Virus record (IMG/VR): IMGVR_UViG_3300035208_005676
Location: 1 to 64,000 of that record
Strand: one strand, 5' to 3'
Source of the DNA: a virus
Lineage: Duplodnaviria > Caudoviricetes
Length of the DNA: 64,000 bases
In this document: in pieces, positions 33,236-55,421 of the stretch
How positions within the stretch are numbered: position 1 is the stretch's first letter
How the letters are laid out: each line of letters starts with the position of its first letter
Position numbers and translations under genes: made by a program
Notes under the pieces: model-generated
Database searches by the model: none
Seen by the model: the letters and a program-made list of their open reading frames with translations, nothing else
Told to the model about the DNA's origin: nothing

Positions 33236-35305
33236 ATGTCTTCAATCGGCCTGAACAACGGCAACGCCCCGGCCTTCACGTCGCGCAGCCGCCTTTCTCC
33301 TGACGTCCACCCCGATATGCCCCCTGAGCCCTCCGCGGACGCTGTGGGGCAGGGGCGGCCGATTGCCAGCCTCGACGACGTGACGGACGGGCTCGGGCTG
33401 CCTTCCGACGATCGGGCGCGGCTGCGCACCGGCCTGGAGGAAGCTGGGCGAGGCCCCGACGCGATCCGCAAGGCGGTCGCTGGTCCGCTGCGCGAGCTGC
33501 GGCAGTCGAGCCGGGATCCTCTGCTCGTCAAGACCGTGGGGCAGCGGTTCACCGCGTATCTGGGCAATGGGCTGATCAAGGGCAACGACCAGCCCCCCGC
33601 CGGCTTTACCCCGATCCCCAACAGTCGTCACGGCGGTTGGCACAAACAGGCCGGCGCGGGTTTTTTATACTATTACCCCGGAGTCGGTGTCACCCGGCAG
33701 AGCAAGGAGAACATGCCCGCGCAGCCGGGCATGAAGCAGACAGGACCGCAGCAGGGGCCCGGGGGGCAGCAGGGGCAGCCCCCTGGGGGGAAAGGCCAGC
33801 CAGCGGGGCAGCAGGGGGCCCAGGCGGGGCAGGAGCAGGTGGATCCCTACAAGCCGACCTCGACGAAGCGACCGGTAGCCGAGCTGCTCGGCGGGATGGA
33901 TCCCAAGGAGTTCAGCGGGCTGTCGAGGACCGACCAGGCCGCGAAGACAGCCAAGTATTCCGACGTGGCTGCCGAGATGGAACAGTACCAGCCACCCGAG
34001 CCCTACGACGGTGACTCCCACGCGGGCGCGGCGAAGTCGGCCGCAAAGCATGTGCGGCAGTTGCAGCGGGACGGGGTGTTCTGCCAGGATGCGGCGGAGC
34101 GGACGAACGCGCTGGTCGCCCGGATGGCCCAGGACGCGCAGGCCGCGAAGATCCCCTCGCAGCTCTTCGCCGCGCTGACCGCGCGCAACGTCGCGAAGCT
34201 GGCCCTGCAGGAGGCCAAAGCCGTCGAGCGGACGATCGGGGACCATGGGGTGCGGCATTGCTCCGTCAACGTCAAGCATTGCCATGAGATCATGGACGCG
34301 TTGAAAGCCGGCGGGCTCGCGGTCGAGCCCAAAGACTACCTCGCCGCGTCACAGATCATGATCGATCACGATATGGGCTACGCGATTCCGGCCATCCACG
34401 AAGGCGGCTTCGACGTGGGCGACAAGTTTCACCCGCAGGCGTCGCGGGTGCTCTGGGAGCAGCAGCCGGAGATGGGGCACATCTTCGGGGAGGACGGCGC
34501 GAAGGCGATGGCCCAGATCATCGAGGAGCACAGCGGGACGTCCCTGGACTGGGAGAAGGACCCGCTCGGCTCCGCGGTGCGGATGGCCGACAATACCCAC
34601 CTCTTCGCCGACAAGATGCCGGAGCTGCTCTTCGACTCCCGCAAGGGGGTCGAGCTGATGGCCAAGATCGCGTTGCTGAAGCAGGCCGAGGGTTTCGTCG
34701 GGAAGGAAGGGCAGAAGGCCGCGGGAAAGGATGCTGGAATCGGAGCCGCGGTCAACGATCTGCGGGACGCGCTGCGCCAGCACATTGACCAGCGCGGCGA
34801 CTTGCCGATCCAGTATCGGCAGCGGCTCCAGAAGGCCGCGGCTGAGATCGGGGCCAACACGGACGTCTTCCTGGCCTCGCGGCTCGCTGGCCGAGATCCG
34901 AAGTTTGCCTTCGACGCGAAGGAGAAGCGGATGGACCTGACCTGCGAGCATTCCGACGTCCGCGGGGCCATCGCGGACGTCTTCGGAGAAGACGAGCAGG
35001 ACAAGCAGTTTTCCAAGATGCTGGAAGACTTCGGCCTGAAGAAAGCGGATCAGGACAAGCTGAAGAGCCCGCCGCCGCCAACCCGGGTGGATATTCCTCC
35101 GGATGGGAAGGGATCGGTCGCCAGCTTCACCTGGAAGCCGAACACAAAGGCGAATGCCCACGAAAAGGAGTTCGCGGACGTGCTGCATAGCGTCCAGGCG
35201 GAGTGGAAGGCCATTCAGGGGGAGCAGGACGAGACGAAGAAGGCCGGGATGCTCGCCAAGTGGACCGGGGAGTTGACCAAGGCGCTGCGCGCCTGGCAGC
35301 GGTAG
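33236..35305 (+). CDS. HD-domain phosphohydrolase with N-terminal leader and repeat module
   Basis: DHGVRH...DHDMGY...HP...EH...RMAD; LIKG followed by PPAGFTPIPNSRHGGW...YYYP. Confidence 0.7.
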   Translation: MSSIGLNNGNAPAFTSRSRLSPDVHPDMPPEPSADAVGQGRPIASLDDVTDGLGLPSDDRARLRTGLEEAGRGPDAIRKAVAGPLRELRQSSRDPLLVKTVGQRFTAYLGNGLIKGNDQPPAGFTPIPNSRHGGWHKQAGAGFLYYYPGVGVTRQSKENMPAQPGMKQTGPQQGPGGQQGQPPGGKGQPAGQQGAQAGQEQVDPYKPTSTKRPVAELLGGMDPKEFSGLSRTDQAAKTAKYSDVAAEMEQYQPPEPYDGDSHAGAAKSAAKHVRQLQRDGVFCQDAAERTNALVARMAQDAQAAKIPSQLFAALTARNVAKLALQEAKAVERTIGDHGVRHCSVNVKHCHEIMDALKAGGLAVEPKDYLAASQIMIDHDMGYAIPAIHEGGFDVGDKFHPQASRVLWEQQPEMGHIFGEDGAKAMAQIIEEHSGTSLDWEKDPLGSAVRMADNTHLFADKMPELLFDSRKGVELMAKIALLKQAEGFVGKEGQKAAGKDAGIGAAVNDLRDALRQHIDQRGDLPIQYRQRLQKAAAEIGANTDVFLASRLAGRDPKFAFDAKEKRMDLTCEHSDVRGAIADVFGEDEQDKQFSKMLEDFGLKKADQDKLKSPPPPTRVDIPPDGKGSVASFTWKPNTKANAHEKEFADVLHSVQAEWKAIQGEQDETKKAGMLAKWTGELTKALRAWQR

Positions 35306-35306
35306 C

Positions 35307-38300
35307 GTGCGTGAGTATCCCCCCGGCACCGTGCGGCAGTGGCGCACCGGTCCTGCTCGGAAGGAAGCGGATGGCTCCTGGGTACCGTTGCCAGCCGGGG
35401 GGAAGTACCCGCAGGGGAAGGGGCTGCGGATCCTGTCGCTCTTCTCCGGGGCTGGGGGGCTCGACGAGGGGCTGCGGCGGGCGCTGCCCGATGCGAAGCA
35501 CGTCGGTTTTGCAGAGCCCGACGAGGCTGCCCGCGCGGTCTTGAAAGATCATTGGCCCGGGGTGCCGGTCCACTGGGATGCCCGCGAGCTGGCCGATCGA
35601 GCCGAGACGGGGAAGGACATCGGGCGACCTAACCTCGTGGTCGCCGGTTTTCCCTGCCAGGACGTCTCCCAGGCCGGTAAGGGTACCGGGATGGCCGGGA
35701 GCCGGACCAGCCTCTACCGGCACGCGCTCCGGATCATCCGCGCCACGAAGCCCGAGATCGTACTCTTCGAGAACGTCCCCGGTCTGCGCACCAACGGGTT
35801 GGCCCTGGTCCTCGCGGATCTGCACGCGGCCGGGTACGATGCAACCTGGGATCACGTCCCGGCCGCGGCGGTCGGGGCCCCCTCGCAGCGGGACCGGATC
35901 TTCCTGGTCGCGCACCGGCCCGGGGTGGAGCTGCACTTCGGCGGCGCGGCTCCGGAGCGGCACGGGGTACACTGGCGGCAGACGTGGAAGGAAGCGCCGG
36001 TTCTGTCGGCTGACGAGGAGGCCGGGGCAGAGGCGCTGCGGCGGCAAGGCGGGCTTCCGGTGACCTGGAAGGGTACCGGCAGCAAGGAGATCCTGCGGCT
36101 CGCCGGGAACGCGGTAGCGCCCCCCGTAGGGCACTACCTGGGGGAGATCCTGGCGGGCGCGACCGAGGGCAAGGAGCAAGCGGCCGCGGCGAAGCCCTGG
36201 CCGGCGGAGCTGCCGCGGGCCGGTGTGCTCCGCGGCGGCGGTGTCGAGGAGCGGAAGCCCGCGCATCCGCTCGGAGCCCTGCGGAACACCGCGCAGGTGG
36301 GCGACGTGGTCTTGATTCAGGACCCGGCCCCCTACAACCCGCCTGGGGAGGACGCGTACGACGGCGCGAGCGCGGTCGACGAAGCCTACCTCGGGCAGGT
36401 GGTCACGATTCAAGGGCGCGGCTCCGAGGATCAAGTGGACGTCGAGACGCCGAACGGCGACGTCGTCCCCTTGCCCTGGACGTGGCTTGCGCGGCTGCCC
36501 ACGCCGACCGCGACCGAGGGGAAGGGTGGGATCCCGGCGAGCTTGCCGGGCTTCCCGGGACAGGAGTTTGCAGCGCGCAAGCGTGGCGGCCAGCTGCGGC
36601 ACATGGTCACCGGGAGCGTCAATCACGACTTCGCAGCGTGGGCGCAAGGGTTTCCGCAAGGGTGGTTTGACGCTGTCCAGGCAGAGCAGCCGCGGGAGAA
36701 GGAAGGGGAGCAGCTGCCGCTGATCAAGGCCGGCTACCCTGTCGGTAGCGTGCGTCTTTTTCGGGCAGCTCCGGACACGAATTGTGACGATTCGGGCACA
36801 ACTTCGTTCGCTGCTCGGGAAGGCGATGCTGTTGCATACCTGGACAACCCCGGTTTTGGCGGAAGCAAGCTCTACACGGTGGTTATTTCTCCTGTTTTGA
36901 GGGAGACTCTCGACCTGATTGAGGGGGAAGCCCCGAGTTGGCTTGCCGGGGCAATTCGATCTCATGGTGCCGCCGGGAAGGTGTGGGCGCTGACCGCTTC
37001 AGAGGTAGTACGGGCCGCTTTGGCGGAGCATGGTATTCGATGGGTCAGATTTACTGACGACTTTCCTGTTGGTTGCGAGACGTGGGCTCTTGTGGGATGG
37101 GAAGACGGGTCCACCAGTGACGTTGAAGACGAAATGGAGGAGATCAAAACAGGAGGAGAAGCTGTGTCTTCGGGGCAGCGTCATTCTTCCTGGCCTCCGA
37201 CCGGCCCCGGTTGGCAGGCGATCCCGAAGGGGAAGCACGGCGGGTTTCGGCGGCGGGCCGCGGACGGCGACTGGGAGTACACCTATCCTTCGGAGCCTAG
37301 CACACTGCAGAAGGGCAAAGCCTACCCGCCCGGGACGATCCGCCAGTGGCGGGGCGGCCCGGCCCAGAAGCAGGCGGACGGGAAGTGGAAGCGGTTGGAG
37401 CCCACCGCGAAGGTGACCGCGAAGGGCCATCCCAAGATCTTCCGGTATCCGACCGAGACGGTCTATGACGTCACGCCGGCCGGGCCGGGGTTGGTGCGGC
37501 TGACCCGGGAGGGTACGCAGTACGGCCCGACCATGCCCGAGGCCAGCGTCAAGCACTTTGTCAACGACATCGCGGGCCGGGTGGAGCTGCCCCCCTCGGG
37601 CAACCCCGACATCGACGCGGTGACCTCGGGGCAGGCGAAGCTGCTGGGCAAGGGTGACGACGGGATCGCCTTCCAGGTAGGGAACAAGGTCGTCAAGGTG
37701 TCGACGACGGTCCCGTACCACCCGGAGAATCCAGGGCACCGTTCTCCCCAGGAAGCGATCGAGATGTTGCGCAGGCAGAGCGAGACGGGGAACAAGCTCG
37801 CTGATCTGGGGGTGCCGGGGATCCAACGGAGCGAGTACATCGTTCACGGGGACAAGGGCTTCCAGATCAAGTCCTGGGTCGAGATCCCGGAGAAGCTGTC
37901 GCAGGACCAGCTCGACCAGCTGCAGGAGTCGATCCTGGCCATGCACCGGGCCGGCTATTCCTTGAACGACGAGCCCCAGGGCGGGCTTGGCCCGGACGGG
38001 CGGATGGTGCAATTCGACGTGGGCAAGGCCGCGCCGACGAAGGAGTCCAGTTCGCGCTGGGACAACAGCGAGGAAGACGACCTCAGCCGGCTGCGGTACC
38101 TCTACCAGCGCAACGACGTGCCGTTCGTCCGGTTGGATCGCACGGACGGCTTGCGGTTGGTCGACAAGGCCCAGGAGATGCTGGACCGGGACAAGCCGCC
38201 GCTGCGGATGATCGGGATGATCTTGCAGGACGCGGCCGAGAAGATCGTCAAGGAAGCTCCGCGCATGGGCTCACACTGGGCTGGCAAGGCGCAGGCGGAG

Positions 38301-40649: not shown

Positions 40650-40873
40650 AGATCCTCTACAACGGTCGCGAGGTCGCCACCCTGGAGGACGGCCAGCTCA
40701 CCACGGACTATCCTCAGCTGCACACACTCTGGGCCAACCCGCCGCCTCTGCTCGGTGGAGGTGCGGTCAACGGAGTCAACTACTCGCAGCAGCAGCAGCC
40801 GAAGACGCCGGCCGAGAAAGAGCAGGCTTTCCTGGAGGCTCTGCGTCTGGTAGGATTCAGGGTTGAGGAGTAG
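40646..40873 (+). CDS. small hypothetical protein
   Basis: GGAGGG RBS, GTGA overlap. Confidence 0.65.
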   Translation: MKILYNGREVATLEDGQLTTDYPQLHTLWANPPPLLGGGAVNGVNYSQQQQPKTPAEKEQAFLEALRLVGFRVEE

Positions 40874-40877
40874 GAAG

Positions 40878-43481: not shown

Positions 43482-43694
43482 ATGTGCGACAACGGCTGTG
43501 CGGATTGCAGTTGCCATTCCTCCCCGCCCTTGCTCCTGGAGCAGCTGACGGAAACGGATCTGGAGCAGATCTGGCGCGCGGCCTACCCGGGGCGGGAGCG
43601 GCCCACCTCGGCGGGGTTGTTCGTCCGCGATCTCTGCGCCGCGCTGCATCGCTCCTCTGACCTCGACGGCCTGGCCAAGCGGAGCGCGACGTGA
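43482..43694 (+). CDS. small hypothetical protein
   Basis: fills the gap; GTGA-coupled to the next gene. Confidence 0.5.
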   Translation: MCDNGCADCSCHSSPPLLLEQLTETDLEQIWRAAYPGRERPTSAGLFVRDLCAALHRSSDLDGLAKRSAT

Positions 43695-46600: not shown

Positions 46601-49600
46601 GACGCACTCAACCGGTTTCTGCAGCGGCATTTTCATTCCCACGCCGAGCTGGTCCGGGAGGCCGGGGTCTACACCCTTTCCGTGGATGGGCGGGAGATCA
46701 AGGGTGCGGACAATGGGTTCTGGGATGGTCATATCGGCGCGAAGTGGCGGGCCGTGATCAACCTCCTGAATCGGGAGCGGCTGGGCGACAAACAGAAGGA
46801 CGCGGTCTACGGGATCGACGAAGACTACCGGCGCTTCCTGATGGAGGGCGACCGGGGCGAGTGGCGGGGGCCGGTGGAGGATGCCTACAACCGGGCCTTC
46901 CACGCGTACCGCGCCGCGGCGGTCTCGCAGGATGCGGTGCAGCTGGGCAAGGCGTGGCACTACGGCGAGAAGGTCAATGGGGAGTACGTCGGGCGGACCC
47001 CGCACGGCTATCAGTACCAGGGGATCCGTTGGCTGCAGCGACAGGGCAAGGGGATCCTGAGCGACGGCGTCGGCCTCGGGAAGACTCTGGTTGTGCTCGG
47101 TCACGCGGCGGCTGAGGCGGCGATCGCCAAGGAGAAGGGCCTGGCGCACAAGCCGCTGATCGTGGTGCCCAAGAGCCTGCTAATGAATTGGCAGGCCGAG
47201 ATCCTGGAGGTGTTGCCCCAGGCGCGGATCCTGCTGATCGGCGAGAAGATGATTCCCGACAAGAAGAATCCCGGGAAGATGGTGGGCAAGGAGCAGTCGG
47301 CCAAGGAGAAGGGTGAGGCGTGGGCGCGGGCCGCGCTGAATGACTGGGATTTCGTGCTCTGCTCCCGGGAGAGCTTCCAGGGGCTCGACCTGTCCATCGA
47401 GCACAAGATGGAACGGTGGGAGGATCTGGCTGCCGCGGAGGTTTCTGGCGCAGCCAAGGAAGAGAAGGAGTCCAAGAAGCGGGTCAAGAGCGAAGCGACC
47501 CTCGACAAGGCCAAGGCCCGCGCCAAAGCCCGTTTTGAGGCGGAGGACGCCGAGCGCAGGATCCTCGGGGCCCCGCTCTTCGAGGACGTGGGGCTGACCC
47601 ACCTGTACTTCGACGAGGGGCACGCGTTCAAGAATCTCTACGTCCCGAAGGGCGGCTACAGCGGGGTGAAGTATCTCGGATCGGCCCAGAAGGCGAAGCG
47701 CTCGGTCGACATGGATCTCAAGTGCCGGGTATTCGAGCAGTTGAATCCCGGCCGGGGGCCGATCCTGGCGACTGCCACGCCGGTCAAGAACAGCCCCTTG
47801 GAGGTCTACACGATGATGAGCCACGTTGCCCCGGAGGTTTTCACTTCTCGCGGGATCGACAACGTGGAGAGCTTCCTGGACCGCTACGCGGTGATCCGCC
47901 GGGAGGTGGTTCCGAACACGCGCGGCCAGCTGGTTGAAACGGACGTGGTTGCCGGCTTCAAGGGGCTGCGGGAGCTGCGCGACATCTGCGCCACCTACTT
48001 GATGATTCGGGACGCGAAGACGGTGGGGCTGCGGATCCCGGCGGAGGACCTGATCCCGGAGGCCGTGGATCTGACGCCGAATCAGCAAGCGACGATGGCT
48101 CGGTTGCGGCAGGTGCTAGAAGACCTGCTGAACGGGAAGATCGTCGGGGTCGACGACGACGATCTGTACGTTGACGAGTCCACCGCAATCGCGGCGGGGG
48201 CGAAGCCCGGGAGGCGAAAGAAGGGCGCGGAGGAGGACGGGGACGCGTCCAGCAGCCCGTCAGCCGGTATCACCGGGGCGATGGGCAAGCTCAACGAGCT
48301 GGAGAAGCTGGAGGACAAGAGCATCTTGCGGGTGCTCCACGCGATGCACGTCGTCAGCCTCGATCCCAGCTACGATCCGAGCATCATGGCGGACTATGCT
48401 CCCTCGCAGGAGGGCGGCCCGCCCCAGGATCTCCGCTCGCCCAAGCTGGAAAAGCTGGTTGCTAACTGCAAGGCCGCGTTGGACCTCCAGACGGCGGAAA
48501 AGCCGCGGGGGCAGGTGATCTTCTGCGACATCATCAAGGTTGAATACAAGATCCGGGACATGCTGATTGCCGCGGGGGTGCCGGCCGAGCGGATTGCGAT
48601 GATCAACGCGAAGGACGCGCCGACCATCACGGAGCGGCAAGAGCAGGCCCGGCGTTTCCAGAAGGGCGACGCGTGGGTGATCATCGGGAACACCGCGACG
48701 ATGGGGGAAGGGGTCAACCTGCAGAAGCGGGGCAGCGACATCCACCACGCGGACATCCCCTGGGATCCGGGCTCGATGGAGCAGCGCAACGGCCGCGTGG
48801 TGCGCCAGGGCAACCCGATCGACAAGGTGGGGTTGCGGACCTACCTGGGCAAAGGGAGCTTCGACGGGTACCGCCTTGCCGGGCTGTTGGGCAAGGGCCA
48901 GTGGCTCCAGCACCTGTGGCACGGGACAACCGACGAGATCGAGATCCCGGCCGAGGTGCAGGGGTTGAACCGTGACTCGCTGTTCGTGTTCGCGTCGGCC
49001 GATCCGGATGCCGCGTCGGCCGAGCTGGAGGAAGGCAAGAAGCGGCAGGCCGTCCAGAAGCGCGACGCCTTGTACCAGGCGGATCTGACCCGGTACGCGT
49101 CGCTGCGATCCATGTGGCGAGCGCACAAGGATCTGTTGCGCCAGGCGGCGACGGCGGCCGAGGATCCCAAGCGCATTGCGCCCGACGAAACCAAGGTGCA
49201 GGCGCTCGTACAGTCGATTGCGCAGTCACGGCGGATTCTGGGCGACTCCATCTACTTCCCGCACAAGGACGCGTTGACCGACGAGGCCCTGGACGGGCCC
49301 GCGGTGATCAACCCGGCAAACGGCCTGCTGATCAAGGCGGGCATGAGCCTGATGGTGCCGCGGGCGATGCGCGGGCACTCCTGGAACAAGCCTCCGACCG
49401 CGTTCCGGGTGACCGACGTGGACGCGCGGGCCGGGAAGGTGACCGGATTTTTCTACGGGTCGATCGACACCTTGGCTGACGCGCGGGAGCCGGTCACGTT
49501 GCTGATTCAGAACCTCGGGAAGGCCGCGGCGACCTTGATTGCTCCGGAGGAGGAGTCGCGGCTGATCGTAGACGAGATCGCGCGTCTGGGCCCCAGTCAG

Positions 49601-51274
49601 GTCAAGGAGCTGCCGGCCGACTTCCGCGCCGCGCATGAGGACGCTTTGCGCAGCGCGGCGCGGGCCTGGCTGCTCTCACAAGACGCGAAGGTCAGCGCGT
49701 CAAGCGAGGGTGTTTCGGTCGTTGGCTGGTCGAAGGACGCGGCGGGTGGGGTGTACCCGCAACAGCTGGAGCAGGCTGACGCGCTGCAGCTGGCCCGCAA
49801 GGGCCCCGGGGTTTTCGATCTGGTCGTGGGTGGGAAGGTCGACAAGGAGCGGCTGACCGCGTTCCGCTCGCGGCTCGCCGATTCCCTGCAGCGGGGAGTG
49901 GTCTTGCCGCAGGCCACCATAGACCTTCTGCGGGGACTGGGAGATCTGGGGCTGGTTCCCGGGGGCCTGGAGAGCTGGCTGGAAAGCGAGCTGCCCGAGG
50001 ACGTGAGCAAGGAGCAGTACGTCAACTTCCACCTGGCGGTGTACGCCGGGCTCCACCCGGGCGACGGTCGGGAGAAGAGCACGCGGGCCTGGCGGGAAGG
50101 GAAGTGGGCCGACGAGCAGAAAACGAAGCTGCAGAACAAGCAGCTCGCCTGGGCCGCGTACAAGGCCCGGGTCGGCGAGGAGACTGCGGCGGATACGCTG
50201 GTTGGTGGACTCTCGGCGCGGGCCGACTGGGTTGACCAGCCCGAGACTGCGGCGTCGGCGGACGTGACCACCGCGCGGCGGATCTTGCAAACGACCCGGG
50301 AGCAGATCGAGCTGGCAAACCGCTGGTTTGCGGTGCCGACCGCGCACCGGGATCCCCTGGTGATTCTGCGGCCGACCGGGGAGGGCGACGAGAAGGTCCC
50401 CTACACCGTGTCCGCGGTCTATTCGGCGAGCATCCTGTCTTCGTTGGCTGGTAAGGTGAACGGACAGATCTACCGGCCGGGTGCCGGCGTCAGCCGGTAT
50501 GAAACGGGGATCATCCTGGCCGACCTGGGGTTGACTCCGGAGCGGGTAGAGGCGCTGGAGCAGAAAGAGCTGGTCCGGATCAACGCCGAGCGGGAAGAGC
50601 AGCGGAAGCTGGCGGAGGCACGGGAGCAGCGGCAGCGCGAGGAGGCCGATCGGGTGCTCGCAGCGAAAGCCGAGAAGCAGAACGCGCTGTCGAAGATGCT
50701 GCGCGGGAAGGTGTGGCAGGCGACGAAGTTCGAGGATCGGGCGCAGGAGCTTTTCGCGGGGTTGTCGATTCTCGTCCGCGACCGGGAAGACGAGAAGCTG
50801 GTTGCCACGGAGCAGACTGTGTACGGGGCGACGAACGTACGGTTTGCGTTCGGCGGGCAAAAGGAGTTGTCGCCCAAGAAGGGGAGCAGTATCACCCTGA
50901 TTCGCAACGGCGGGCGCGGGCCGGCTTTCCTGAGGAGCGTCCTGGTAGGGGCAGGATGGTTTTTCGACGACAAGTGGACGAATTGGTCCGCGCCCCGGGG
51001 CATGAGTACCGACGAGCAGCGGGAGACGCTGGCGCGAGTTGCGCAGCAGCTCGCGGTGGCACAGCAGACGGCGCGGGAGTTGTCCGCAGCCGGTGTGACC
51101 GCGGAGTCGCTGGCCGGCGTGGATGTTTCGTTGCCCGGGGCGGCGGCAATGATCATCGCTGCGCAAGACGTGGTCAAGAGCTTGCCCGCCGGGGCACCTC
51201 TGCGGCCCCTCGCTGGACTTTTGGGGCGCGGCCCGGCTATCTTGGTGGGGACGCGACCGAGCGCAGGGAGGTAG
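43691..51274 (+). CDS. DarB-like N6-adenine MTase / SNF2 helicase giant protein
   Basis: YSGHGG, EYFTP, LEPSVGTG, NPPF; GVGLGKT, DEGHAFKN, TATPVKNS, GEGVNLQ, EQRNGRVVRQGN. Confidence 0.88.
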   Translation: MSDPNIIIHPPEVASDPDILVKGRKPAPTVPWPPSGPGWESIPKPRGGRHGMRRRKSTGSGYEYSYIPVVPPPQLSMFDNVRPAAPDKKKRAPRAATPTAGQTDLFGTFDVPEAAKPAVERAKSTSEKVATAAIAAKRPRKGAIFNPAPVLRVGKEKIPALSAGVDRPAPLPQLSLLDFAPEAQPIIYPAEQVKADVVKASQGRPRKTRSRKLLVDPIGALTDPADTTPVASPAELELPPAAVEDVEALLRQEKDGKPLPDREVPAEPILPEGKRLAGEIEAQAAKERGEEAEILHSQFGGLRGIVEHGIKATFGGRAGWGPVARKTANQHAKQVLATLKKEQREATPEELEILKGYSGHGGVGGDSFGNLNEYFTPTGIAGAIWGALAASKCATRDTPILEPSVGTGAFLDTCPFRFAQTVGVELDPTSAGVARALFEPRGEGFTKIETDCFERFAVRDARYWPIIVGNPPFGARGKTAAADPEKRGMPAESYFLDTAVDKLLPGGVVAMVLPTQVISGDGEDRKAFRERLLKKAELIGAWRLPSGAFAQSGTSIATDVVFLRKWQGAEVLAALTTDELAERGYTIDPEVLAGNYFRKHPGQVFGVEQEDAEFNGQIKVEGKLTAEDLHRLAEEAGNALRAGRIANNPLTRPMMDVTEGLSAARRVEVEAARTGPSPYRWEEGTLRDFEGIRHIYRKTPDGFAWRRIDAAEELENLSPTDKEQVTAAGKIGEGLSELQAAIRTGDDPAKTAALREQLRRDVVTWRDRYGVPAGAKKLLGKLANQTAAAMFAGSIKPDGEVCDLLLRQVDPQRVALPEGQTETDSPEVAVDMAAREGDGIINLTSAAQNLGGVDIKPIEAVLLASPAYFLDEEGNWLTKERFLSGYVYERRSSLANIAAVLEQAAGDAKRAADLLQGMEGRQAAGKLGLARNFEKVLAKIKEGVAELDKVRNATPFEEIRITLRDGWVPIDALNRFLQRHFHSHAELVREAGVYTLSVDGREIKGADNGFWDGHIGAKWRAVINLLNRERLGDKQKDAVYGIDEDYRRFLMEGDRGEWRGPVEDAYNRAFHAYRAAAVSQDAVQLGKAWHYGEKVNGEYVGRTPHGYQYQGIRWLQRQGKGILSDGVGLGKTLVVLGHAAAEAAIAKEKGLAHKPLIVVPKSLLMNWQAEILEVLPQARILLIGEKMIPDKKNPGKMVGKEQSAKEKGEAWARAALNDWDFVLCSRESFQGLDLSIEHKMERWEDLAAAEVSGAAKEEKESKKRVKSEATLDKAKARAKARFEAEDAERRILGAPLFEDVGLTHLYFDEGHAFKNLYVPKGGYSGVKYLGSAQKAKRSVDMDLKCRVFEQLNPGRGPILATATPVKNSPLEVYTMMSHVAPEVFTSRGIDNVESFLDRYAVIRREVVPNTRGQLVETDVVAGFKGLRELRDICATYLMIRDAKTVGLRIPAEDLIPEAVDLTPNQQATMARLRQVLEDLLNGKIVGVDDDDLYVDESTAIAAGAKPGRRKKGAEEDGDASSSPSAGITGAMGKLNELEKLEDKSILRVLHAMHVVSLDPSYDPSIMADYAPSQEGGPPQDLRSPKLEKLVANCKAALDLQTAEKPRGQVIFCDIIKVEYKIRDMLIAAGVPAERIAMINAKDAPTITERQEQARRFQKGDAWVIIGNTATMGEGVNLQKRGSDIHHADIPWDPGSMEQRNGRVVRQGNPIDKVGLRTYLGKGSFDGYRLAGLLGKGQWLQHLWHGTTDEIEIPAEVQGLNRDSLFVFASADPDAASAELEEGKKRQAVQKRDALYQADLTRYASLRSMWRAHKDLLRQAATAAEDPKRIAPDETKVQALVQSIAQSRRILGDSIYFPHKDALTDEALDGPAVINPANGLLIKAGMSLMVPRAMRGHSWNKPPTAFRVTDVDARAGKVTGFFYGSIDTLADAREPVTLLIQNLGKAAATLIAPEEESRLIVDEIARLGPSQVKELPADFRAAHEDALRSAARAWLLSQDAKVSASSEGVSVVGWSKDAAGGVYPQQLEQADALQLARKGPGVFDLVVGGKVDKERLTAFRSRLADSLQRGVVLPQATIDLLRGLGDLGLVPGGLESWLESELPEDVSKEQYVNFHLAVYAGLHPGDGREKSTRAWREGKWADEQKTKLQNKQLAWAAYKARVGEETAADTLVGGLSARADWVDQPETAASADVTTARRILQTTREQIELANRWFAVPTAHRDPLVILRPTGEGDEKVPYTVSAVYSASILSSLAGKVNGQIYRPGAGVSRYETGIILADLGLTPERVEALEQKELVRINAEREEQRKLAEAREQRQREEADRVLAAKAEKQNALSKMLRGKVWQATKFEDRAQELFAGLSILVRDREDEKLVATEQTVYGATNVRFAFGGQKELSPKKGSSITLIRNGGRGPAFLRSVLVGAGWFFDDKWTNWSAPRGMSTDEQRETLARVAQQLAVAQQTARELSAAGVTAESLAGVDVSLPGAAAMIIAAQDVVKSLPAGAPLRPLAGLLGRGPAILVGTRPSAGR

Positions 51275-51278
51275 CACC

Positions 51279-51629
51279 TTGGCGACGACCGTACCCGGAT
51301 CTGCAGCCCCCGAGGGTGTCCTGCGCAACCTTGTCCAGGCGCTTCAGACGGATCCGGTGTCCTACCGTCACTGGGGCCCGTGGTGGTGGCGGCTGAAGCG
51401 GATCCTGAAAGCGGCTGGCTATACCCGGGAGGTCTTCCAGGGGCTCGGCGAGGAGTTTCCTGACCACGAGATGCTGCACCGCTGGGATGACCTCGACGAT
51501 CGGGCCTTCCTGCTCGCGGCGCTCCTTGACCAGTACCAGAACGCGATCGCCCGCTGGCATTCGCAGTGGCAGGCGGACCCCGACCCGGAGCGGCCGGAGT
51601 ATTTCCTGCTCGACCCGGACGTGGAGTAG
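51279..51629 (+). CDS. hypothetical protein
   Basis: GGGAGG RBS; YRHWGPWWWRLK. Confidence 0.7.
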   Translation: MATTVPGSAAPEGVLRNLVQALQTDPVSYRHWGPWWWRLKRILKAAGYTREVFQGLGEEFPDHEMLHRWDDLDDRAFLLAALLDQYQNAIARWHSQWQADPDPERPEYFLLDPDVE

Positions 51630-51633
51630 GATC

Positions 51634-54192
51634 ATGGGCGAGCGTATCCCCGGCGGGCTGGCAGCGGGCAAGAAGCCTGAGGACTTCGATCCGGAGCAGC
51701 TCGCGGCCGGCGTCAGGGTCGAGGCCGAGCACACCACGGACTCGGCAGTCGCTCGCGAGATCGCGATGGACCATCTGACCGAGGACCCGGACTACTACCG
51801 GAAGTTGCGGCGGATGGAAAAGGCGCTGCGGGACGTCGGGGCCTGGCTGACGCTCGTCGAGCTGGTCCCGGAGGCCGATCTGACGAAAGCGGATCGGCAG
51901 GCCGCGCAGCACAAGTACATCATGCGCCAGCCGAGCGGCAAACCGAAGCCGAAGTGGCGCTACTGGTACAAGATGCCGGGCGGCAAGGGGGTCGTCACCC
52001 ACGACCGGCTGGTCGAAGGGGCGCGCTTCGCCGGGGCGCACAACGGCGCGGCAGGCCACTGGGAGGTGCTTTCCTCCGGAGACGACGGGGTGCTCGCTCG
52101 CCACTCCAGCGGCGCGCACGTCAAGCTGTCCCACGAGGAGTTTGCGGCCGGCGTCAACGCGCAGCACGCGGGAGCGCAGGGCGAGGCCCGGACAGAGCGG
52201 CGGCGCGAGATCATGGAGTCGTTGAAGGTGCTCCACGAGGGTGGCGGCGGCAAGGGGCAGGCGAAACGCGTTTCGCACCTGATCGAGGAGGCTGTGCGGC
52301 TCGGCTGGGTCTCGGAAAAAGAGGCGCAGCTCTACCGCAACCGGCTGCAGCCGGCGGAAGACAAGGCCGCGGCAGCCGATCCGGGAGCGAAGCTGAAAGC
52401 CGCGCTGGCCAGCGCGGCCCCGGAGCACCGGGACGCGATCCTGGCGCACATGCGCAGCCTGGAAGAGGAGCGGCAGAAGCTCGAAACGGCGGGCGCGGAG
52501 AAGCCGGCCGCCGCTCCCGCTCCGGAGCCCAAGGGCGGAGAGAAGGACAGCGGCCTCGGGCTGCGCGGCAAGTCCGACGACATGAAAACCGCGGATGCGA
52601 CGGGCAAGGGGCAGGACCAGCCCTTCCGCTACCGCCTGGTGCCGCTGGCGGACATGATCCCCTCGCACAACCCGGAGGACCAATTCCGCGAGCACCCACA
52701 GTACCCGAAGGGGGTGCAGGAGCGGCACTATGACCAGAACAAGGAGTCACAGCTGACGATCCGGCAGCGGGCCGGCGAGCTGGAGCCGCGCTTCCTGGTC
52801 AATACCAACCCGGACGCAGCCAACGGCCCGCCAATCATCGTCCCGAACGGCGTTGTCCTGGGTGGCAACAGCCGCACCATGACGTTGCAGCTCGCCTACC
52901 ACGACCATCCGGAGCAGGCGCAGAAGTACCGCGACTACATCAAGGAGCACGCGGCAACCTTCGGCTTCTCGCCCAAAGACGTCGACGCGATCGAGGATCC
53001 GGTGCTGGTCCGCGAGGTCGACGACCCCGGGACGCAGAAGGAACGGGCGTTGCTGGGCCGGCGCTACAACGAATCGTTCACTCGGGCGCTGGCTCCGCAA
53101 GAGGAGCAGGTGACGCTGGGCAAGCAGATCTCCGCGGGCACGCTGGGCAAGTTGACCGACTACACGGACATGCTGGCCGAGGCCAAGGAAGAGCCGACCT
53201 TCGAGGCGTTCCTGAGGTCCAACCGGTCGCGGCGGTTCGTCGAGTCGCTGGTCAAGGACGGGGTGATCGACGAGCGCAACCGGGATCGCTACTTGCTCCC
53301 GGCCAAGTCGGCGCACGCGGGGCTGCTCAACGAAGTCGGGCGGGTGTTCGCTTCCCAGGTGCTCATGGGCAGCATCATCGACGACGTCGACGACCTCGAC
53401 GACATCGGGAAGACCTACCGGGACCGGATCAGCTCGCAGCTGCCGGTGATCCTGGCCGCGAGCGCGAGCAACCCGAAGTTCGACCTCTCCCGGGCGCTGA
53501 AAACCGCGGTCGGCGTGCTCGCGCAGCAGGAGCGGGAAGGCAAGGCGCACCCCTGGCTGGTCCTGAAGCAGGGTGACATCGCCCGGAAGGACAAGGAGAC
53601 GGGGGCCGAGGTGGTGACCGGCGCGGGGGACTACTCCCACCCGGTCTACAAGGATTCGCTGGCGCAAGCCATGGTGGCCGTCTTCTCCCGGGCCTCGCAG
53701 AAGGCCACGGGTCCGGGGTTCCGGAAGTTTGCCGATCTGGCGACCGCGCCCTCGTCGGAGGGCGGGATGTTCGCGGACGGGCCGACTGACGAGGAGCGGG
53801 CCCTGGCCGGCATGCGCAGCGCGTTTGGCTTCACGACGGCCGATCCGCTGCGCGAGGTCGAGAACCTCGAAAACGAGCGGCTGGGCGCGAACGCGCAGGC
53901 GACGGCTGAGCGGGGCAAGGCCGCTGTGAAGCAGAAGATGACCGAGCGCGGGATCAAGACGCAGGGCGAGGTTGCGCCCAAGAAGGTCCGCAAGCCGCGG
54001 CTGGTAAAGCCCGAGCCCGAGCCGATTCCTGAGCCCGTGCGCAAGCCGCGCAAGGCAAAGGCAGCCCCGGCTCCCGAGCCTGAGCCTGAGCCCAAGCCGA
54101 CGCCGATCCGGCGGGGGCGGGGCCCGGACAAGCAACCGCGCAGGCGGCGGGAGCCGAAGATCGTTGTCACGGGGCGGAGGAAGGCGGCATGA
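51634..54192 (+). CDS. polyvalent protein: DUF5661-like N-terminus + ddrB-like ParB domain
   Basis: QLAAGVRVEAEHT..AREIAMDHLTEDPDYYRKL; YRLV..DMIPSH..QERHY..GPPII..VLGGNSR. Confidence 0.75.
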   Translation: MGERIPGGLAAGKKPEDFDPEQLAAGVRVEAEHTTDSAVAREIAMDHLTEDPDYYRKLRRMEKALRDVGAWLTLVELVPEADLTKADRQAAQHKYIMRQPSGKPKPKWRYWYKMPGGKGVVTHDRLVEGARFAGAHNGAAGHWEVLSSGDDGVLARHSSGAHVKLSHEEFAAGVNAQHAGAQGEARTERRREIMESLKVLHEGGGGKGQAKRVSHLIEEAVRLGWVSEKEAQLYRNRLQPAEDKAAAADPGAKLKAALASAAPEHRDAILAHMRSLEEERQKLETAGAEKPAAAPAPEPKGGEKDSGLGLRGKSDDMKTADATGKGQDQPFRYRLVPLADMIPSHNPEDQFREHPQYPKGVQERHYDQNKESQLTIRQRAGELEPRFLVNTNPDAANGPPIIVPNGVVLGGNSRTMTLQLAYHDHPEQAQKYRDYIKEHAATFGFSPKDVDAIEDPVLVREVDDPGTQKERALLGRRYNESFTRALAPQEEQVTLGKQISAGTLGKLTDYTDMLAEAKEEPTFEAFLRSNRSRRFVESLVKDGVIDERNRDRYLLPAKSAHAGLLNEVGRVFASQVLMGSIIDDVDDLDDIGKTYRDRISSQLPVILAASASNPKFDLSRALKTAVGVLAQQEREGKAHPWLVLKQGDIARKDKETGAEVVTGAGDYSHPVYKDSLAQAMVAVFSRASQKATGPGFRKFADLATAPSSEGGMFADGPTDEERALAGMRSAFGFTTADPLREVENLENERLGANAQATAERGKAAVKQKMTERGIKTQGEVAPKKVRKPRLVKPEPEPIPEPVRKPRKAKAAPAPEPEPEPKPTPIRRGRGPDKQPRRRREPKIVVTGRRKAA
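52261..52276. repeat. 16-bp palindrome copy 8
   Basis: exact match. Confidence 0.95.
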
Positions 54193-55421
54193 GCCTGCTA
54201 CCTCCCGACAACGAGCCGCTGGACCTGGAAAAGGGGCTTGCCGATTGGATCTTCCCGATCGCCAACGCGATCGTTGGCGGGAAGGACGTTCCCGACGCCA
54301 GCCCGGCTTCTCGTCGGTCGGTTCCCTTGCAGGCGGCCGGGCTAAAGTACGGCTCTCCGGAGCAGGCGGAGCACGCGCGGGGCCCGGGTCGGGGTCGCCT
54401 GGTCCTGCTCCCGTCGAAAACCGACCCGCGGATCCGCCGCTGGCAGGAGCCGGCCGGGGCTGCTCCGCGGGAGAAGACCCCGCGGCACAAGGGCGGAAAC
54501 GTCCCGGACGTGGGCCGGGTGATCGGGGAGGACAGCCGCAAGCGACTGGTTGCCTGGGCCCGCTCGCACCGGTACATCGGAGAGGCCGTCCGGGAGTACC
54601 CGGATCTGGAAGACCAGAAGCTCGCCGGGGTGGCGCAGGTGCTTCACCGCGAGGGGACGATCTCCCCGGATGGCTACGAGGAAGCCCCGGATCGGGAGAC
54701 GACCCCCTACGAGGGGAATCTGGTCCACTGGCGACGAGCGCTGGCCGAGCTTTCCCCTGACGATCGGCACGCGCTGTACGAGATCCATGACGCGCACCGG
54801 CGCAACTGGGTCCACGGGTCGCCAGCTGCTCCGGAATCGTCGCGGCACGTTCTGACCGGTGCTTCCGTGGGGCTGCACTCTGCAGGCCGGCGTGAGGCTT
54901 TCCCGATGGCAATGAGCCTGGGCGGAGACGACTTGGAGAAAAACATGACCAGTCACGACGCATTCGAGGATCTGTGCAAGTCGGTCGGGATCGACCCCCT
55001 CCAGAAGGGTGAAGCGGCGGGGCCTCCCCCTCCGGGCCCGCAGCGGACCCCGCCGCCCCAGGCAGGCCCCGGGGCCCCTGCACCCACCCCTCCCGGCGCG
55101 GTTCCTGCCCCGGCTGCCCCCGGGGCTGCTGGAGGCCCCTACGCCCCCCCTCCGGGGCCACCTTCGCCCCCGACCGCCGCGGCCGCGGACAAGGCCCCGC
55201 CGGGGCCGGGGGGGTTGCTGGATTCCAGCGAGGATGATGGGGTCGACCCTGAGGTCAAGAAGGCCCTGGCCGGCTGCAGGTTTTCCGACAAGGGCGCGGA
55301 CGGTTCTACCCTGGTGGGCCAGGGCGAGGGGCCGCGGCTGGCGAAGCTCCTGGAGAAGGGCGAGGAGAAGCAGTCGACGGACTTCTCGATGGCCAACGCG
55401 CTCGGGGGGAGCTGGAAGTGA
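54189..55421 (+). CDS. hypothetical Pro-rich head-associated protein
   Basis: ATGA coupling; several LxK[G/S] sites. Confidence 0.65.
   Translation: MSLLPPDNEPLDLEKGLADWIFPIANAIVGGKDVPDASPASRRSVPLQAAGLKYGSPEQAEHARGPGRGRLVLLPSKTDPRIRRWQEPAGAAPREKTPRHKGGNVPDVGRVIGEDSRKRLVAWARSHRYIGEAVREYPDLEDQKLAGVAQVLHREGTISPDGYEEAPDRETTPYEGNLVHWRRALAELSPDDRHALYEIHDAHRRNWVHGSPAAPESSRHVLTGASVGLHSAGRREAFPMAMSLGGDDLEKNMTSHDAFEDLCKSVGIDPLQKGEAAGPPPPGPQRTPPPQAGPGAPAPTPPGAVPAPAAPGAAGGPYAPPPGPPSPPTAAAADKAPPGPGGLLDSSEDDGVDPEVKKALAGCRFSDKGADGSTLVGQGEGPRLAKLLEKGEEKQSTDFSMANALGGSWK

What the first reader, a model, noticed from the sequence alone, without database searches (positions are those of the whole stretch)
33236..55421. 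Probable capsid-cargo polyprotein system: L-x-K-[G/A/S] junctions plus shared modules across about 22 kb
Seen: unrelated enzyme domains in six large ORFs between terL and portal are delimited by the same tetrapeptide. Sites: LIKG 33572, LIKA 36720, LQKG 37305, LAKG 38361/39177/39273, LEKG 39441, LHKG 41082, LVKS 42531, LVKG 43748, LTKA 51880, LEKG 54225. It also occurs near C-termini (LTKA, VVKS) and in the portal itself (LVKA, LEKS). Most junctions are immediately followed by one of a few short Trp/Tyr modules. Known: prohead proteases cleave head proteins at short motifs, and DarB/MuF-associated polyvalent proteins are packaged and injected. Inference: LxK|[G/A/S] is the maturation-protease site, and the ORFs are polyproteins cut in the prohead into separately tagged effectors delivered with the DNA.
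Basis: partly seen in the sequence, partly recalled or inferred. Interest (0 to 1): 0.88.

Follow-up and report, generated by a model that had tools for sequence, protein, structure and literature searches.

The report
Phage cargo polyproteins with protease-site junctions
Six large multi-enzyme proteins of this phage carry, at the borders between their enzyme units, the same Leu-x-Lys / small-residue signal that its capsid, scaffold and head protease carry where related phages cut them, so the head protease probably trims and cuts them into separate injected enzymes; no cleavage has been measured.

Summary
All 12 listed sites are at the stated coordinates. L-x-K-[G/A/S] occurs 28 times in the six ORFs against 9.7 expected. 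It is not enriched in the rest of the 103.5-kb phage genome (21 against 17.9).

The motif is very probably the prohead-protease site:
- It occurs 7 times in the scaffold, once at residue 27-30 of the major capsid protein, and in the protease itself.
- The capsid site aligns with the annotated mature N-terminus of Listeria phage A511 Cps (ALK|S).
- It is kept in SPO1 and in all 17 capsid proteins of related metagenomic phages.

In the cargo ORFs the conserved sites sit at unit borders. Most are followed by one of three short Trp/Tyr modules, and these modules also open ORFs. In relatives the same junction is an ORF start or end. An AlphaFold model of ORF A puts both conserved sites in flexible breaks. 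One module (T2) is found in 278 protein clusters with no Pfam match, and 70% of internal copies have the site just upstream (17% background).

Cleavage and packaging are inferred, not shown. About ten motif copies look incidental. ORF D looks like an end-trimmed pro-protein rather than a polyprotein. This scan has noted the same theme in at least 26 other genomes. I class it as a new variant of a known kind.

The parts
33236..35305 (+). ORF A (689 aa): N-terminal helical part, cut site, T2 module, disordered G/Q/P linker, conserved HD-like core, C-terminal cut site
   Evidence: 18 homologues; AF2 model; weak Foldseek matches to HD-GYP/PDE folds (E 0.3)
33572..33583 (+). Site A113, LIK|G
   Evidence: conserved as [LMF]xK|[GSA] in the A family; pLDDT below 50 at residues 115-117
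33590..33703 (+). T2 module (PPxGFxPIPxSxxGGxHK...YxYWYPG), a three-stranded beta unit
   Evidence: strands 135-153; profile search
35273..35284 (+). Site A680, LTK|A, with a 7-aa tail after it
   Evidence: K682 and G678 are invariant in 18 homologues; in P0009/10/13-17 the same site is an internal junction; pLDDT below 50 at residues 682-689
35307..40649 (+). ORF B (1780 aa), the main polyprotein candidate: T1 | C5 DNA methylase | unknown | T2 | unknown | topoisomerase IB | two short units | unknown | HExxH zincin-like unit
   Evidence: Pfam DNA_methylase 1.2e-34 and Topoisom_I 8e-24; sequence read
35313..35387 (+). T1 module at the N-terminus of B (YPPGTVRQWRTGPARKEADGSW)
36720..36731 (+). 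Site B472, LIK|A, after the methylase unit; a degenerate T1 follows
37185..37298 (+). T2 module in B (residues 627-664)
37305..37397 (+). Site B667, LQK|G, plus T1 module
38361..38453 (+). Site B1019, LAK|G, plus T1 module, opening the topoisomerase IB unit
   Evidence: Pfam Topoisom_I at residues 1074-1271; residues 1022-1293 cover about 80% of stand-alone bacterial TopoIB proteins
39177..39188 (+). Site B1291, LAK|G, closing the topoisomerase unit
39273..39326 (+). Site B1323, LAK|G, plus truncated T1
39441..39533 (+). Site B1379, LEK|G, plus T1 module
40026..40646 (+). Site B1574, LVK|G, then a C-terminal unit with an HEYGH motif (zincin-like; possibly an MPTase-type peptidase)
   Evidence: no Pfam or NCBIfam match, so this rests on the motif alone
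40863..43460 (+). ORF C (865 aa; the database gene call starts at M6): T1, cut site, T1, unknown units, T3
40878..40961 (+). T1 module at the N-terminus of C
41082..41174 (+). Site C74, LHK|G, plus T1 module
42531..42650 (+). Site C557, LVK|S, plus T3 module (LVLxxSxxxPxxRRWQRPNPGE)
   Evidence: conserved as LLVK|SS in the G001 orthologue; a T3-like stretch is also in F
43691..51274 (+). ORF D (2527 aa): DarB-like N6 methylase plus SNF2 helicase
   Evidence: PHROG 10089 'DarB-like antirestriction' 3e-95 and PHROG 11801 5e-208; Pfam SNF2, Helicase_C, Eco57I
43748..43900 (+). Site D20, LVK|G, after a 22-aa leader, then T2 module
   Evidence: G001 orthologue has DLHK|S plus T2
51170..51181 (+). 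Site D2494, VVK|S, with a 31-aa C-terminal tail
   Evidence: G001 and G002 orthologues have SLSK|S plus a 13-aa tail
51487..54192 (+). ORF E (901 aa as listed; the true start is probably M50 at 51634): DUF5661, cut site, T2b module, DdrB-like ParB
   Evidence: Pfam ddrB-ParB 1.6e-22 and DUF5661 2.8e-13; sequence read
51880..51984 (+). Site E132, LTK|A, plus T2b module (HKYIxRxPxGKxKPKWRYWYKxPG)
   Evidence: LxK|[AS] precedes the same module in three relatives
54189..55421 (+). ORF F (410 aa), overlapping E's stop and the portal's start; sites F13 LEK|G (54225), F262 LCK|S (54972), F271 LQK|G (54999), F388 LEK|G (55350)
   Evidence: F262, F271 and F388 are conserved in G001; residues 18-52 weakly resemble the capsid protein's N-arm (E 0.03 in a small database)
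55418..57367 (+). Portal, with sites LVK|A (55700) just before the conserved core and LEK|S (57311) before a 15-aa tail
   Evidence: the N-terminal site is conserved in L006 and L007, the C-terminal site in L007

Best explanation
The window is the left 64 kb of a 103.5-kb, 67% G+C myovirus-type phage genome. Its head module is distantly SPO1/Herelleviridae-like.

The phage's prohead serine protease (outside the window, genome 66250-67128; conserved His90 and Ser158) probably cuts after Lys in [L, less often I/V/M/F]-x-K|[A/S/G]. Its inferred substrates among the head proteins are:
- the scaffold, at 7 sites;
- the first 29 residues of the capsid protein;
- its own two ends;
- probably the portal's N-terminal extension.

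The six ORFs between terL and portal are polyvalent, DarB/DdrB-type cargo proteins. Between them they carry a C5 methylase, a topoisomerase IB, a DarB-like methylase-helicase, a DdrB-like ParB, an HD-like enzyme, a zincin-like unit and several units of unknown function. They are most likely loaded into the prohead and cut by the same protease at the conserved LxK|[GAS] sites.
- B would be cut into up to eight units.
- A, C, E and F would each give two to four.
- D would only lose a 22-aa leader and a 31-aa tail.

Most products would start, within 0-10 residues of the new N-terminus, with a small basic Trp/Tyr beta-module (T1, T2/T2b or T3). What the modules do is unknown. My best guess is that they bind DNA or the capsid interior, which would keep each fragment with the genome for co-ejection.

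What is shown: the motif statistics, the homology, the conservation and the positions.
What is inferred: the protease specificity (by homology with A511), the packaging (from gene position and DarB/DdrB homology), the cleavage of cargo, and the role of the modules.
For: (1) Motif in head proteins:
- The scaffold has 7 LxK|S, or 21.7 per 1000 aa.
- The capsid protein has one, ELTK|ALVAGQDINSPG, at residues 27-30.
- The protease has LLAK|ALSAGSAIVNPG at residue 198. The next 39 residues are 62% identical to the capsid protein's N-arm.

(2) Experimental anchor:
- Record X91069.1 of Listeria phage A511 annotates the mature Cps peptide from codon 24...QEDALK|SFTTGYG.
- phmmer aligns residue 25 of the related PDB chain 5lii with our A30.
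- PDB chain 9row has that sequence without its first 24 residues.

(3) Conservation across the clade:
- SPO1 has ALNK|A in its capsid protein and 11 [LIVM]xK|S in its scaffold.
- Bacteroides phage DAC23 shows the same pattern.
- All 17 capsid proteins next to related portals have [LVI]xK|A at residues 20-30.
- Their scaffolds have 168 sites against 24 expected.
- In the protease alignment His90, Ser158 and the P1 Lys200 are invariant. An N-terminal phi-x-K|[AS] site is kept, SPO1 included.

(4) Enrichment in the cargo ORFs but not in non-virion genes.

(5) Junction sites are conserved in orthologues while P2 and P1' change. Examples: LIK|G/LHK|S, LVK|G/LHK|S, LTK|A/LLK|S/LVK|A.

(6) A junction in one phage is an ORF boundary in another:
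- The L006 ORF starts M-SGAPPGTIHTW, where L004 has ...CARLAK|AGAAPGTIHTW.
- The C-terminal site of A is internal in P0009/10/13-17.
- Inserted units, such as the zeta-toxin-like kinase in P0004, are bracketed by sites and open with a module.
- DUF5661 follows LTK|G in P0017 but opens our ORF E.

(7) The AF2 model of A (pLDDT 80) has low confidence only at residues 1-40, 115-117, 162-210 and 682-689. Both conserved sites fall in these breaks.

(8) Module-anchored test:
- 149 of 212 internal T2 modules, in 147 proteins from a 1.84-billion-protein library, have [LIVMF]xK[GAS] within 25 residues upstream, against 17% for random windows of the same proteins.
- 22 further modules are at N-termini.
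- For T1 in independent proteins, 6 of 7 have the site and 1 is N-terminal.

(9) L052 has five consecutive ORFs, each with a conserved 23-aa leader ending FxK|G and then a T1 module. This layout resembles a T4 capsid targeting sequence.

(10) Cargo identity: DarB-like and DdrB-ParB matches, gene position in the head module, and overlapping stops and starts of E/F/portal.
Against: - No virion proteomics, N-terminal data or protease assay exists for this phage or any close relative.
- The A511 site reads A-L-K|S, with Leu at P2 rather than P3. The P3 rule is therefore inferred from the motif statistics only.
- P1' is mostly Ser or Ala in the head proteins but mostly Gly in this phage's cargo (15 G, 11 A, 2 S). 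The orthologues in G001 use Ser or Ala.
- Every relative found shares the Lys specificity. A covariation test between protease 'dialect' and junction motif was therefore not possible within the clade.
- Across the wider clade, overall motif density in cargo-like ORFs is 1.6 times expectation, against a background of 1.2-1.4. The signal lies at the junctions, not in bulk density.
- About 30% of internal T2 modules have no site nearby. Many of those follow a QLGLFG-type motif instead.
- B carries its own HExxH unit, which could be the processing enzyme.
Confidence: 0.6

Rival explanations
1. The tetrapeptide is part of a repeated linker-plus-module unit. On this reading it serves folding or binding, it spread by duplication of cassettes, and it is never cleaved. 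The proteins would act as intact polyvalent chains, as reported for N4 vRNAP or P1 DarB.
For: - The P1 Lys lies mostly 0-4 residues before the T2 profile start, which is a tight coupling.
- Seven sites in B and C precede paralogous T1 copies.
- Full-length packaging of large polyvalent proteins is described in PMC5512222.
Against: - Modules at ORF N-termini lack the L-x-K (B, C, L006; 22 T2 cases).
- The same tetrapeptide precedes four unrelated module types and DUF5661, and it ends proteins before short tails.
- It is the top-ranked pattern in scaffold, protease and capsid protein, which have no modules.
- P1' and P2 vary freely among orthologues.
Confidence: 0.15
2. The sites are cut by another peptidase rather than the prohead protease. 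Candidates are the zincin-like (HEYGH) unit at the end of B, or a host protease. Cutting could come before packaging or after injection, as Iyer et al. proposed for MPTase domains of polyvalent proteins.
For: - B residues 1577-1780 carry HEYGH.
- PMC5512222 proposes autoproteolysis by embedded MPTase domains and cites processing of P1 DdrB.
Against: - The same motif marks the capsid protein N-terminus at the position that A511 annotates as the start of the mature protein. It also marks the scaffold and both ends of the protease across the clade, including phages whose loci show no such zincin unit.
- The HEYGH unit matches no Pfam or NCBIfam peptidase model.
Confidence: 0.1
3. The excess of the motif is a chance or compositional effect of Lys- and Gly/Ala-rich linkers.
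For: Composition-based expectations underestimate counts by a factor of 1.2-1.4 in unrelated ORFs of the clade.
Against: - No shuffle in 1000 reaches the observed count.
- The pattern ranks first of 8000.
- 70% against 17% in the module-anchored test.
- K682 is invariant in a variable tail.
Confidence: 0.01

Closest known systems
T4 prohead protease gp21 with the capsid targeting sequences of internal proteins IPI-III and Alt (cleavage after Glu in I/L-x-E; stated in PMC12991175 and PMC9026906)
   Same: - A head protease with a three-residue code (aliphatic-x-charged|) cuts scaffold, capsid protein, itself and packaged, injected proteins.
- D, F and the L052 proteins have short N-terminal leaders ending in the site.
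   Different: - P1 is Lys, not Glu.
- The protease belongs to the SPO1-type family (PHROG 1028), not shown here to be gp21-like.
- The sites are also internal, between whole enzymes.
- A conserved module remains at the new N-terminus instead of the targeting peptide simply being removed.
Head-protein processing in giant phiKZ-like phages (phiKZ, 201phi2-1, SPN3US; PMC10052503, PMC7411985, PMC5694885)
   Same: Many head and ejection proteins are cut by the prohead protease at one short motif.
   Different: - A different motif. From memory it is S/A/G-x-E; I did not read it in these papers.
- A different capsid lineage.
- No enzyme-by-enzyme junction code or N-terminal Trp/Tyr modules are described there, as far as I read.
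Phage P1 Dar system (DarB, DdrB, DarA, Hdf; PMC12810830, PMC9024508)
   Same: - D matches the DarB-like family and E carries the DdrB-type ParB domain.
- The P1 proteins are head-packaged and co-injected.
- DarA and the P1 capsid protein are cut by the P1 protease Pro.
   Different: - No DarA or Hdf homologue was detected here.
- The proteins here carry extra enzymes and a recurring site-plus-module grammar.
Polyvalent proteins of phages and conjugative elements (Iyer, Burroughs, Anand, de Souza, Aravind 2017, PMC5512222)
   Same: - Multi-enzyme proteins encoded next to portal and terminase genes.
- Hub domains such as SNF2 ATPase, N6 methylase and DdrB-ParB.
- An explicit polyprotein analogy.
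   Different: - That paper proposes release by embedded MPTase or C-terminal assemblin-like peptidase domains.
- In the passages I searched it describes neither a trans-acting prohead-protease site at each junction nor the T1/T2 modules.
Herelleviridae capsid protein maturation (A511 Cps, record X91069.1; PDB 5lii, 9row, 9vel)
   Same: A homologous capsid protein, with the cut after Lys at the homologous position.
   Different: - About 24-30% sequence identity.
- I found no cargo polyproteins reported for these phages.

Membership tests
Polyvalent proteins (Iyer et al. 2017) | Two or more unrelated effector or enzyme domains in one polypeptide | tested here: met
   B has a C5 methylase and a topoisomerase IB. 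D has an Eco57I-type methylase and an SNF2 helicase. E has DUF5661 and ddrB-ParB.
Polyvalent proteins (Iyer et al. 2017) | Encoded in a phage late or packaging context (portal-terminase) | tested here: met
   The ORFs lie between terL and portal and are co-oriented. The stops and starts of E, F and the portal overlap.
Polyvalent proteins (Iyer et al. 2017) | Delivered into the host with the DNA | not testable with these tools
   This needs virion proteomics or injection assays.
P1 DarB / DdrB homologues | Sequence match to the DarB-like methylase-helicase and to the DdrB-type ParB domain | tested here: met
   PHROG 10089 at 3e-95 for D; Pfam PF18763 at 1.6e-22 for E.
P1 DarB / DdrB homologues | Dependence on DarA/Hdf-type capsid adaptors | tested here: not met
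   No DarA or Hdf family appeared in the Pfam or PHROG scans of A-F and neighbouring ORFs. Distant homologues cannot be excluded.
Substrates of the prohead protease | Carry the site used in the phage's own capsid protein, scaffold and protease | tested here: met
Substrates of the prohead protease | Site exposed in a flexible region | tested here: met
   Met for A only: pLDDT is below 50 at residues 115-117 and 682-689. Not modelled for B-F.
Substrates of the prohead protease | Actually cleaved in proheads | not testable with these tools
   No data.
SPO1/Herelleviridae-type prohead serine protease (PHROG 1028) | Profile match and conserved His/Ser pair | tested here: met
   PHROG 1028 at 1.5e-27. 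His90 and Ser158 are invariant in five proteases, SPO1 gp3.2 included. No Pfam or PDB sequence match.
T4-type capsid targeting sequence | A short N-terminal leader, shared among cargo proteins and removed at the protease site | tested here: inconclusive
   D (22 aa) and F (15 aa) have leaders ending in the site, but the two leaders are not alike. The five L052 proteins do share a 23-aa leader.

The most novel reading that the evidence does not exclude
A broad clade of phages with SPO1-type head modules builds its injected arsenal from cassettes written as 'phi-x-K | small residue, then a basic Trp/Tyr mini-domain, then an enzyme'.
- The cassettes can be chained into polyproteins or split into separate genes.
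- The prohead protease reads the code.
- The undescribed T1/T2 mini-domains, exposed at each new N-terminus, are the functional tag. They would keep each enzyme on the DNA or capsid interior and escort it into the cell.
- The clamp-binding-like QxxLF motifs just downstream would then dock some of these enzymes on the host sliding clamp.
Probability: 0.3. Interest if true: 0.8.

Novelty: new variant of a known kind. Interest (0 to 1): 0.64.

Why it matters
If the code holds, the products of giant phage 'polyvalent' genes can be predicted from sequence: which enzymes are released, with which ends, and which are merely trimmed.

That would turn long unannotated ORFs into lists of discrete injected effectors. 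Here these include a methylase, a topoisomerase IB, a DarB-like helicase-methylase, a ParB-type nuclease and an HD-like enzyme. The prediction can be tested directly with one protease and one substrate.

It would also define two or three widespread mini-domains that are not in Pfam. T2 alone is in 278 protein clusters. These could serve as markers of packaged cargo in metagenomic phages.

Finally, it would extend the T4 and phiKZ picture of head-protein processing to whole-enzyme polyproteins in another capsid lineage.

Tried and rejected
- **Units of unknown function.** Pfam and NCBIfam scans of A116-689, B473-669, B670-1021, B1382-1576, B1577-1780, C77-559, C560-865, D1883-2527 and F16-410 found nothing credible. 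The 'kinase-like' and 'zincin' labels therefore rest on motifs only.
- **Protease.** No Pfam match and no PDB sequence match.
- **ORF A model.** Foldseek against the PDB gave only weak HD-GYP/PDE hits (E 0.3).
- **Two T1 modules of C.** The ESM Atlas gave no usable hit.
- **ORF C.** The homologue search returned only the protein itself, because the candidate list was saturated. The viral-contig scan with C560-865 found nothing.
- **Topoisomerase unit.** The search for stand-alone forms found ordinary bacterial TopoIB proteins, and none opens with a T1 module.
- **Protease 'dialect' against junction motif.** I could not test this covariation. P0104, chosen because its T2 modules lack nearby sites, turned out to come from a phage with the same Lys-specific head module. 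All 17 related capsid proteins also keep xK|A.
- **Literature.** Searches found no paper describing the Lys specificity of SPO1-type proteases or junction codes in polyvalent proteins. The library is limited to open-access texts.
- **Jobs not run.** I ran no complex prediction, because I make no specific binding claim. I did not use the second structure job, because without alignments B and C would give uninformative low-confidence models.

Full report
**Context.**
- The window is bases 1-64000 of a single 103,540-bp contig with about 67% G+C. It is a phage.
- The window encodes an SNF2-type helicase, a DnaB-like helicase, a primase, a family-A-type polymerase, a UvsX-like recombinase and terL (26979-29195). 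A portal lies at 55418-57367.
- Beyond the window lie a head maturation protease (genome 66250-67128, PHROG 1028, 1.5e-27), an unmatched 323-aa ORF in the scaffold position (67168-68139), the major capsid protein (68157-69671, PHROG 752, 3e-51) and a tail sheath.
- Portal and capsid protein are 28-35% identical to those of SPO1-like Bacillus phages. No closer cultured relative is in the phage collection.

- Six co-oriented ORFs with high GC3 fill 33236-55421.
- L.K[GAS] occurs 28 times in 7172 residues against 9.7 +/- 3.1 in shuffles.
- Among all 8000 patterns of the form a.bc, L.KG ranks first in the six ORFs. L.KS ranks first in portal + protease + scaffold + capsid protein. The remaining 20,888 residues of the genome show no excess, 21 against 17.9.

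**The motif is very probably the prohead-protease site.**
- The scaffold-position protein has seven LxK|S.
- The capsid protein has exactly one site, ELTK|ALVAGQDINSPG, at residues 27-30.
- The protease has LLAK|ALSAGSAIVNPG at residue 198. It is followed by a 39-residue copy, 62% identical, of the capsid protein's N-arm.
- GenBank record X91069.1 of Listeria phage A511 annotates the mature capsid peptide from codon 24...QEDALK|SFTTGYGITPD.
- phmmer aligns residue 25 of the related solved chain 5lii with our Ala30. Another deposited chain (9row) has that sequence without its first 24 residues.
- SPO1 has DALNK|ALEAG and eleven [LIVM]xK|S in its scaffold. Bacteroides phage DAC23 has AELQK|AMEAG and four sites in its scaffold-position protein.
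- Forty-nine metagenomic portal relatives gave 17 capsid proteins, and all have [LVI]xK|A at residues 20-30. Their scaffolds carry 168 sites against 24 expected.
- In an alignment of five proteases, SPO1 gp3.2 included, His90, Ser158 and the P1 Lys200 are invariant. An N-terminal phi-x-K|[AS] site is also kept.
- One caveat: in A511 the Leu is at P2 rather than P3, so only 'after Lys, before a small residue' is anchored experimentally.

**What the six ORFs are.**
- D matches the DarB-like antirestriction family (3e-95) and carries N6-methylase and SNF2 helicase domains.
- E has DUF5661 and the DdrB-type ParB domain (1.6e-22).
- B has a C5 cytosine methylase (1.2e-34), a type IB topoisomerase core (8e-24) and a C-terminal HEYGH unit.
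- A has a conserved core with invariant His/Asp motifs and weak fold matches to HD-GYP and PDE enzymes.
- C and F match nothing.
- These are polyvalent proteins in the sense of Iyer et al. 2017 (PMC5512222). That paper proposes processing by embedded MPTase or assemblin-like domains and draws the polyprotein analogy. In the passages I searched it does not describe a trans-protease site code or the modules.

**The sites sit at unit borders and are followed by modules.**
- Self-comparison and direct reading define three module types:
  - T1: [YF]PxGT[IV]RxWxxGxxRKxxxGxW.
  - T2: PPxGxGWxxIPxxxxGGxRR...YxYxYP. Its variant T2b is HKYIxRxPxGKxKPKWRYWYKxPG.
  - T3: LVLxxSxxxPxxRRWQxP.
- T1 follows the sites B472 (degenerate copy), B667, B1019, B1323 (truncated copy), B1379 and C74. 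It also opens ORFs B and C, where no LxK precedes it.
- T2 or T2b follows A113, D20 and E132. T3 follows C557.
- The topoisomerase unit is bracketed by B1019 and B1291, and the bracketed stretch covers about 80% of stand-alone bacterial TopoIB proteins. The methylase ends before B472.

**Comparative evidence.**
- Portal relatives L004/G001, L006/G002 and L007/G003 (47-62% portal identity) have syntenic cargo ORFs.
- Junction sites persist while P2 and P1' change:

| Protein | This phage | Relatives |
|---|---|---|
| A | GLIK|G | GLHK|S |
| D | ILVK|G | DLHK|S |
| C | ILVK|S | LLVK|S |
| E | DLTK|A | ALLK|S, YLVK|A, LLVK|A |

- G001's B-like protein uses IYK|S and LAK|S before T1. The Gly that dominates at P1' in our phage is therefore not part of the module.
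- The L006 ORF starts M-SGAPPGTIHTW, where its L004 orthologue has a 68-aa extension ending ...CARLAK|AGAAPGTIHTW.
- ORF A has 18 alignable homologues at 36-57% identity. In these:
  - Lys682 and Gly678 of the C-terminal GELTK|A are invariant, inside an otherwise variable tail.
  - The site is the last thing before the stop in some homologues and an internal junction in others, followed by T2 and, for example, ART-PolyVal.
  - A zeta-toxin-like kinase inserted in P0004 is bracketed by LVK|S and LGK|S and opens with a T1 module.
  - The homologues carry 80 LxK[GAS] against 23.5 expected.
- Sites inside folded domains (D533, D1085, D1271, D1880, D1942, A601) are not conserved and are probably incidental.

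**Structure.** An AlphaFold2 model of A, built from the 18-sequence alignment (mean pLDDT 80), has confidence below 50 only at residues 1-40, 115-117, 162-210 and 682-689. Both conserved sites fall in these flexible breaks. T2 forms three short strands at residues 135-153.

**Generality of the modules.**
- A profile of five T2 copies, built without the cut site, found 278 proteins at E <= 0.001 among 1.84 billion cluster representatives. They are mostly 500-3300 residues long, with up to six copies each.
- In the 147 best proteins, 149 of 212 internal modules have [LIVMF]xK[GAS] within 25 residues upstream, against 17% for random windows of the same proteins. P3 is Leu in 62%. P1' is Ala 100, Ser 25, Gly 24. 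A further 22 modules are N-terminal.
- T1 in these independent proteins: 6 with the site, 1 N-terminal.
- No Pfam family covers T2. The carriers contain ART-PolyVal, InPase, SAM lyase and DarB-type domains.
- In locus L052, five consecutive ORFs each begin with a shared 23-aa leader (MKxRDEILKAQQDRIxHIxDxFxK|G) followed by T1. This is the T4 capsid-targeting layout with a module left at the new end.

**Limits.**
- Nothing here shows packaging or cleavage.
- The protease 'dialect' does not vary within the clade, so covariation could not be tested.
- Bulk motif density in cargo-like ORFs of the wider clade is only 1.6 times expectation, against a background of 1.2-1.4. The evidence lies in position and conservation.
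- P1' usage differs between this phage's scaffold (Ser) and its cargo (Gly).
- D is better described as a pro-protein trimmed at both ends than as a polyprotein.
- The function of the modules is a guess. They are basic and aromatic, which would suit binding to DNA or to the acidic scaffold.

**Relation to other work in this scan.** A word search of earlier notes returned 27 findings in at least 26 other genomes describing cargo polyproteins with junction motifs that match each phage's own head proteins. Among them are an L-x-K dialect in an Mx1-like phage and an F-x-K dialect in an LE1-like phage. I did not test those notes and they are not independent evidence. If they hold, they would supply the covariation that this clade cannot.

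**Verdict.** The protease-site reading is well supported by homology. The polyprotein-processing reading is the best explanation but is unproven, and I give it a combined confidence of about 0.6. It is a new variant of known head-protein processing, applied to polyvalent cargo, with previously undescribed N-terminal mini-domains.

Noticed in passing
window 41230-41250, 42876-42935 (ORF C); 43910-44010, 44207-44227 (ORF D); 39528-39545 (ORF B): Motifs resembling a beta-clamp-binding motif, Q..[LM]F[GD], occur five times. All are in disordered linkers of C and D: QTSMFG, QAGLFD, QGGLFG, QLSMFD, QTDLFG. The expected count is 0.12 there and 0.45 in the rest of the genome, where none is seen. QLSLLDF (in D) and QLSLPG (in B, right after a T1 module) are similar. 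In the wider T2-module set, many modules without an LxK site follow QLGLFG or QLSLFG plus a Lys/Pro/Ala linker. These could dock on the host sliding clamp or be a second junction code. The clamp-motif consensus is from memory.
   Followed up: partly
window 41259-41285 and 42948-42974 (ORF C); L001:2349-2375 (protease N-terminus): The peptide PARGL[GD]xRD occurs only three times in the genome. Two copies are in C, each right after a QxxLFGDD. The third is in the protease N-terminal region, between two phi-x-K|[AS] sites (FVK|AMPARGLGSRDEK|SEGG). It is unexplained. It might be a procapsid-targeting or protease-docking peptide.
   Followed up: partly
L001:2838-2960 (protease residues 194-232) against L001:4223-4339 (capsid protein residues 23-61): The C-terminal part of the protease, just after its LLAK|A site, copies the capsid protein's N-arm (62% identity over 39 residues). 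Several distant A-family cargo proteins end with similar K|[AS]LE[AD]GD stretches. This suggests co-assembly by mimicry of the capsid N-arm.
   Followed up: partly
window 60215-61984: A 589-aa head protein (PHROG 15127) has a weak Pfam intein-splicing match (E 6.5e-4). Another first-reader note calls it a MuF gene split by an intein.
   Followed up: no
window 62810-64000, continuing to genome 64603, minus strand; window about 62200-62770: A 597-aa ORF matches transposase (TnpB-like) PHROGs. Another first-reader note reads it as a Cas12m-like effector next to a CRISPR array. I did not examine it.
   Followed up: no
window 51487-51633: The first 49 codons of ORF E as listed read like out-of-frame filler (Ser/Thr/Arg-rich). 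The real start is probably Met50 (51634), directly before the DUF5661 unit. In homologue P0017 that unit follows an LTK|G junction.
   Followed up: partly
L052:9153-15136: A distant relative (33% portal identity) encodes five consecutive cargo ORFs. Each has the same 23-aa N-terminal leader ending FxK|G, followed by a T1 module. This is a split-gene version of the polyprotein grammar.
   Followed up: partly
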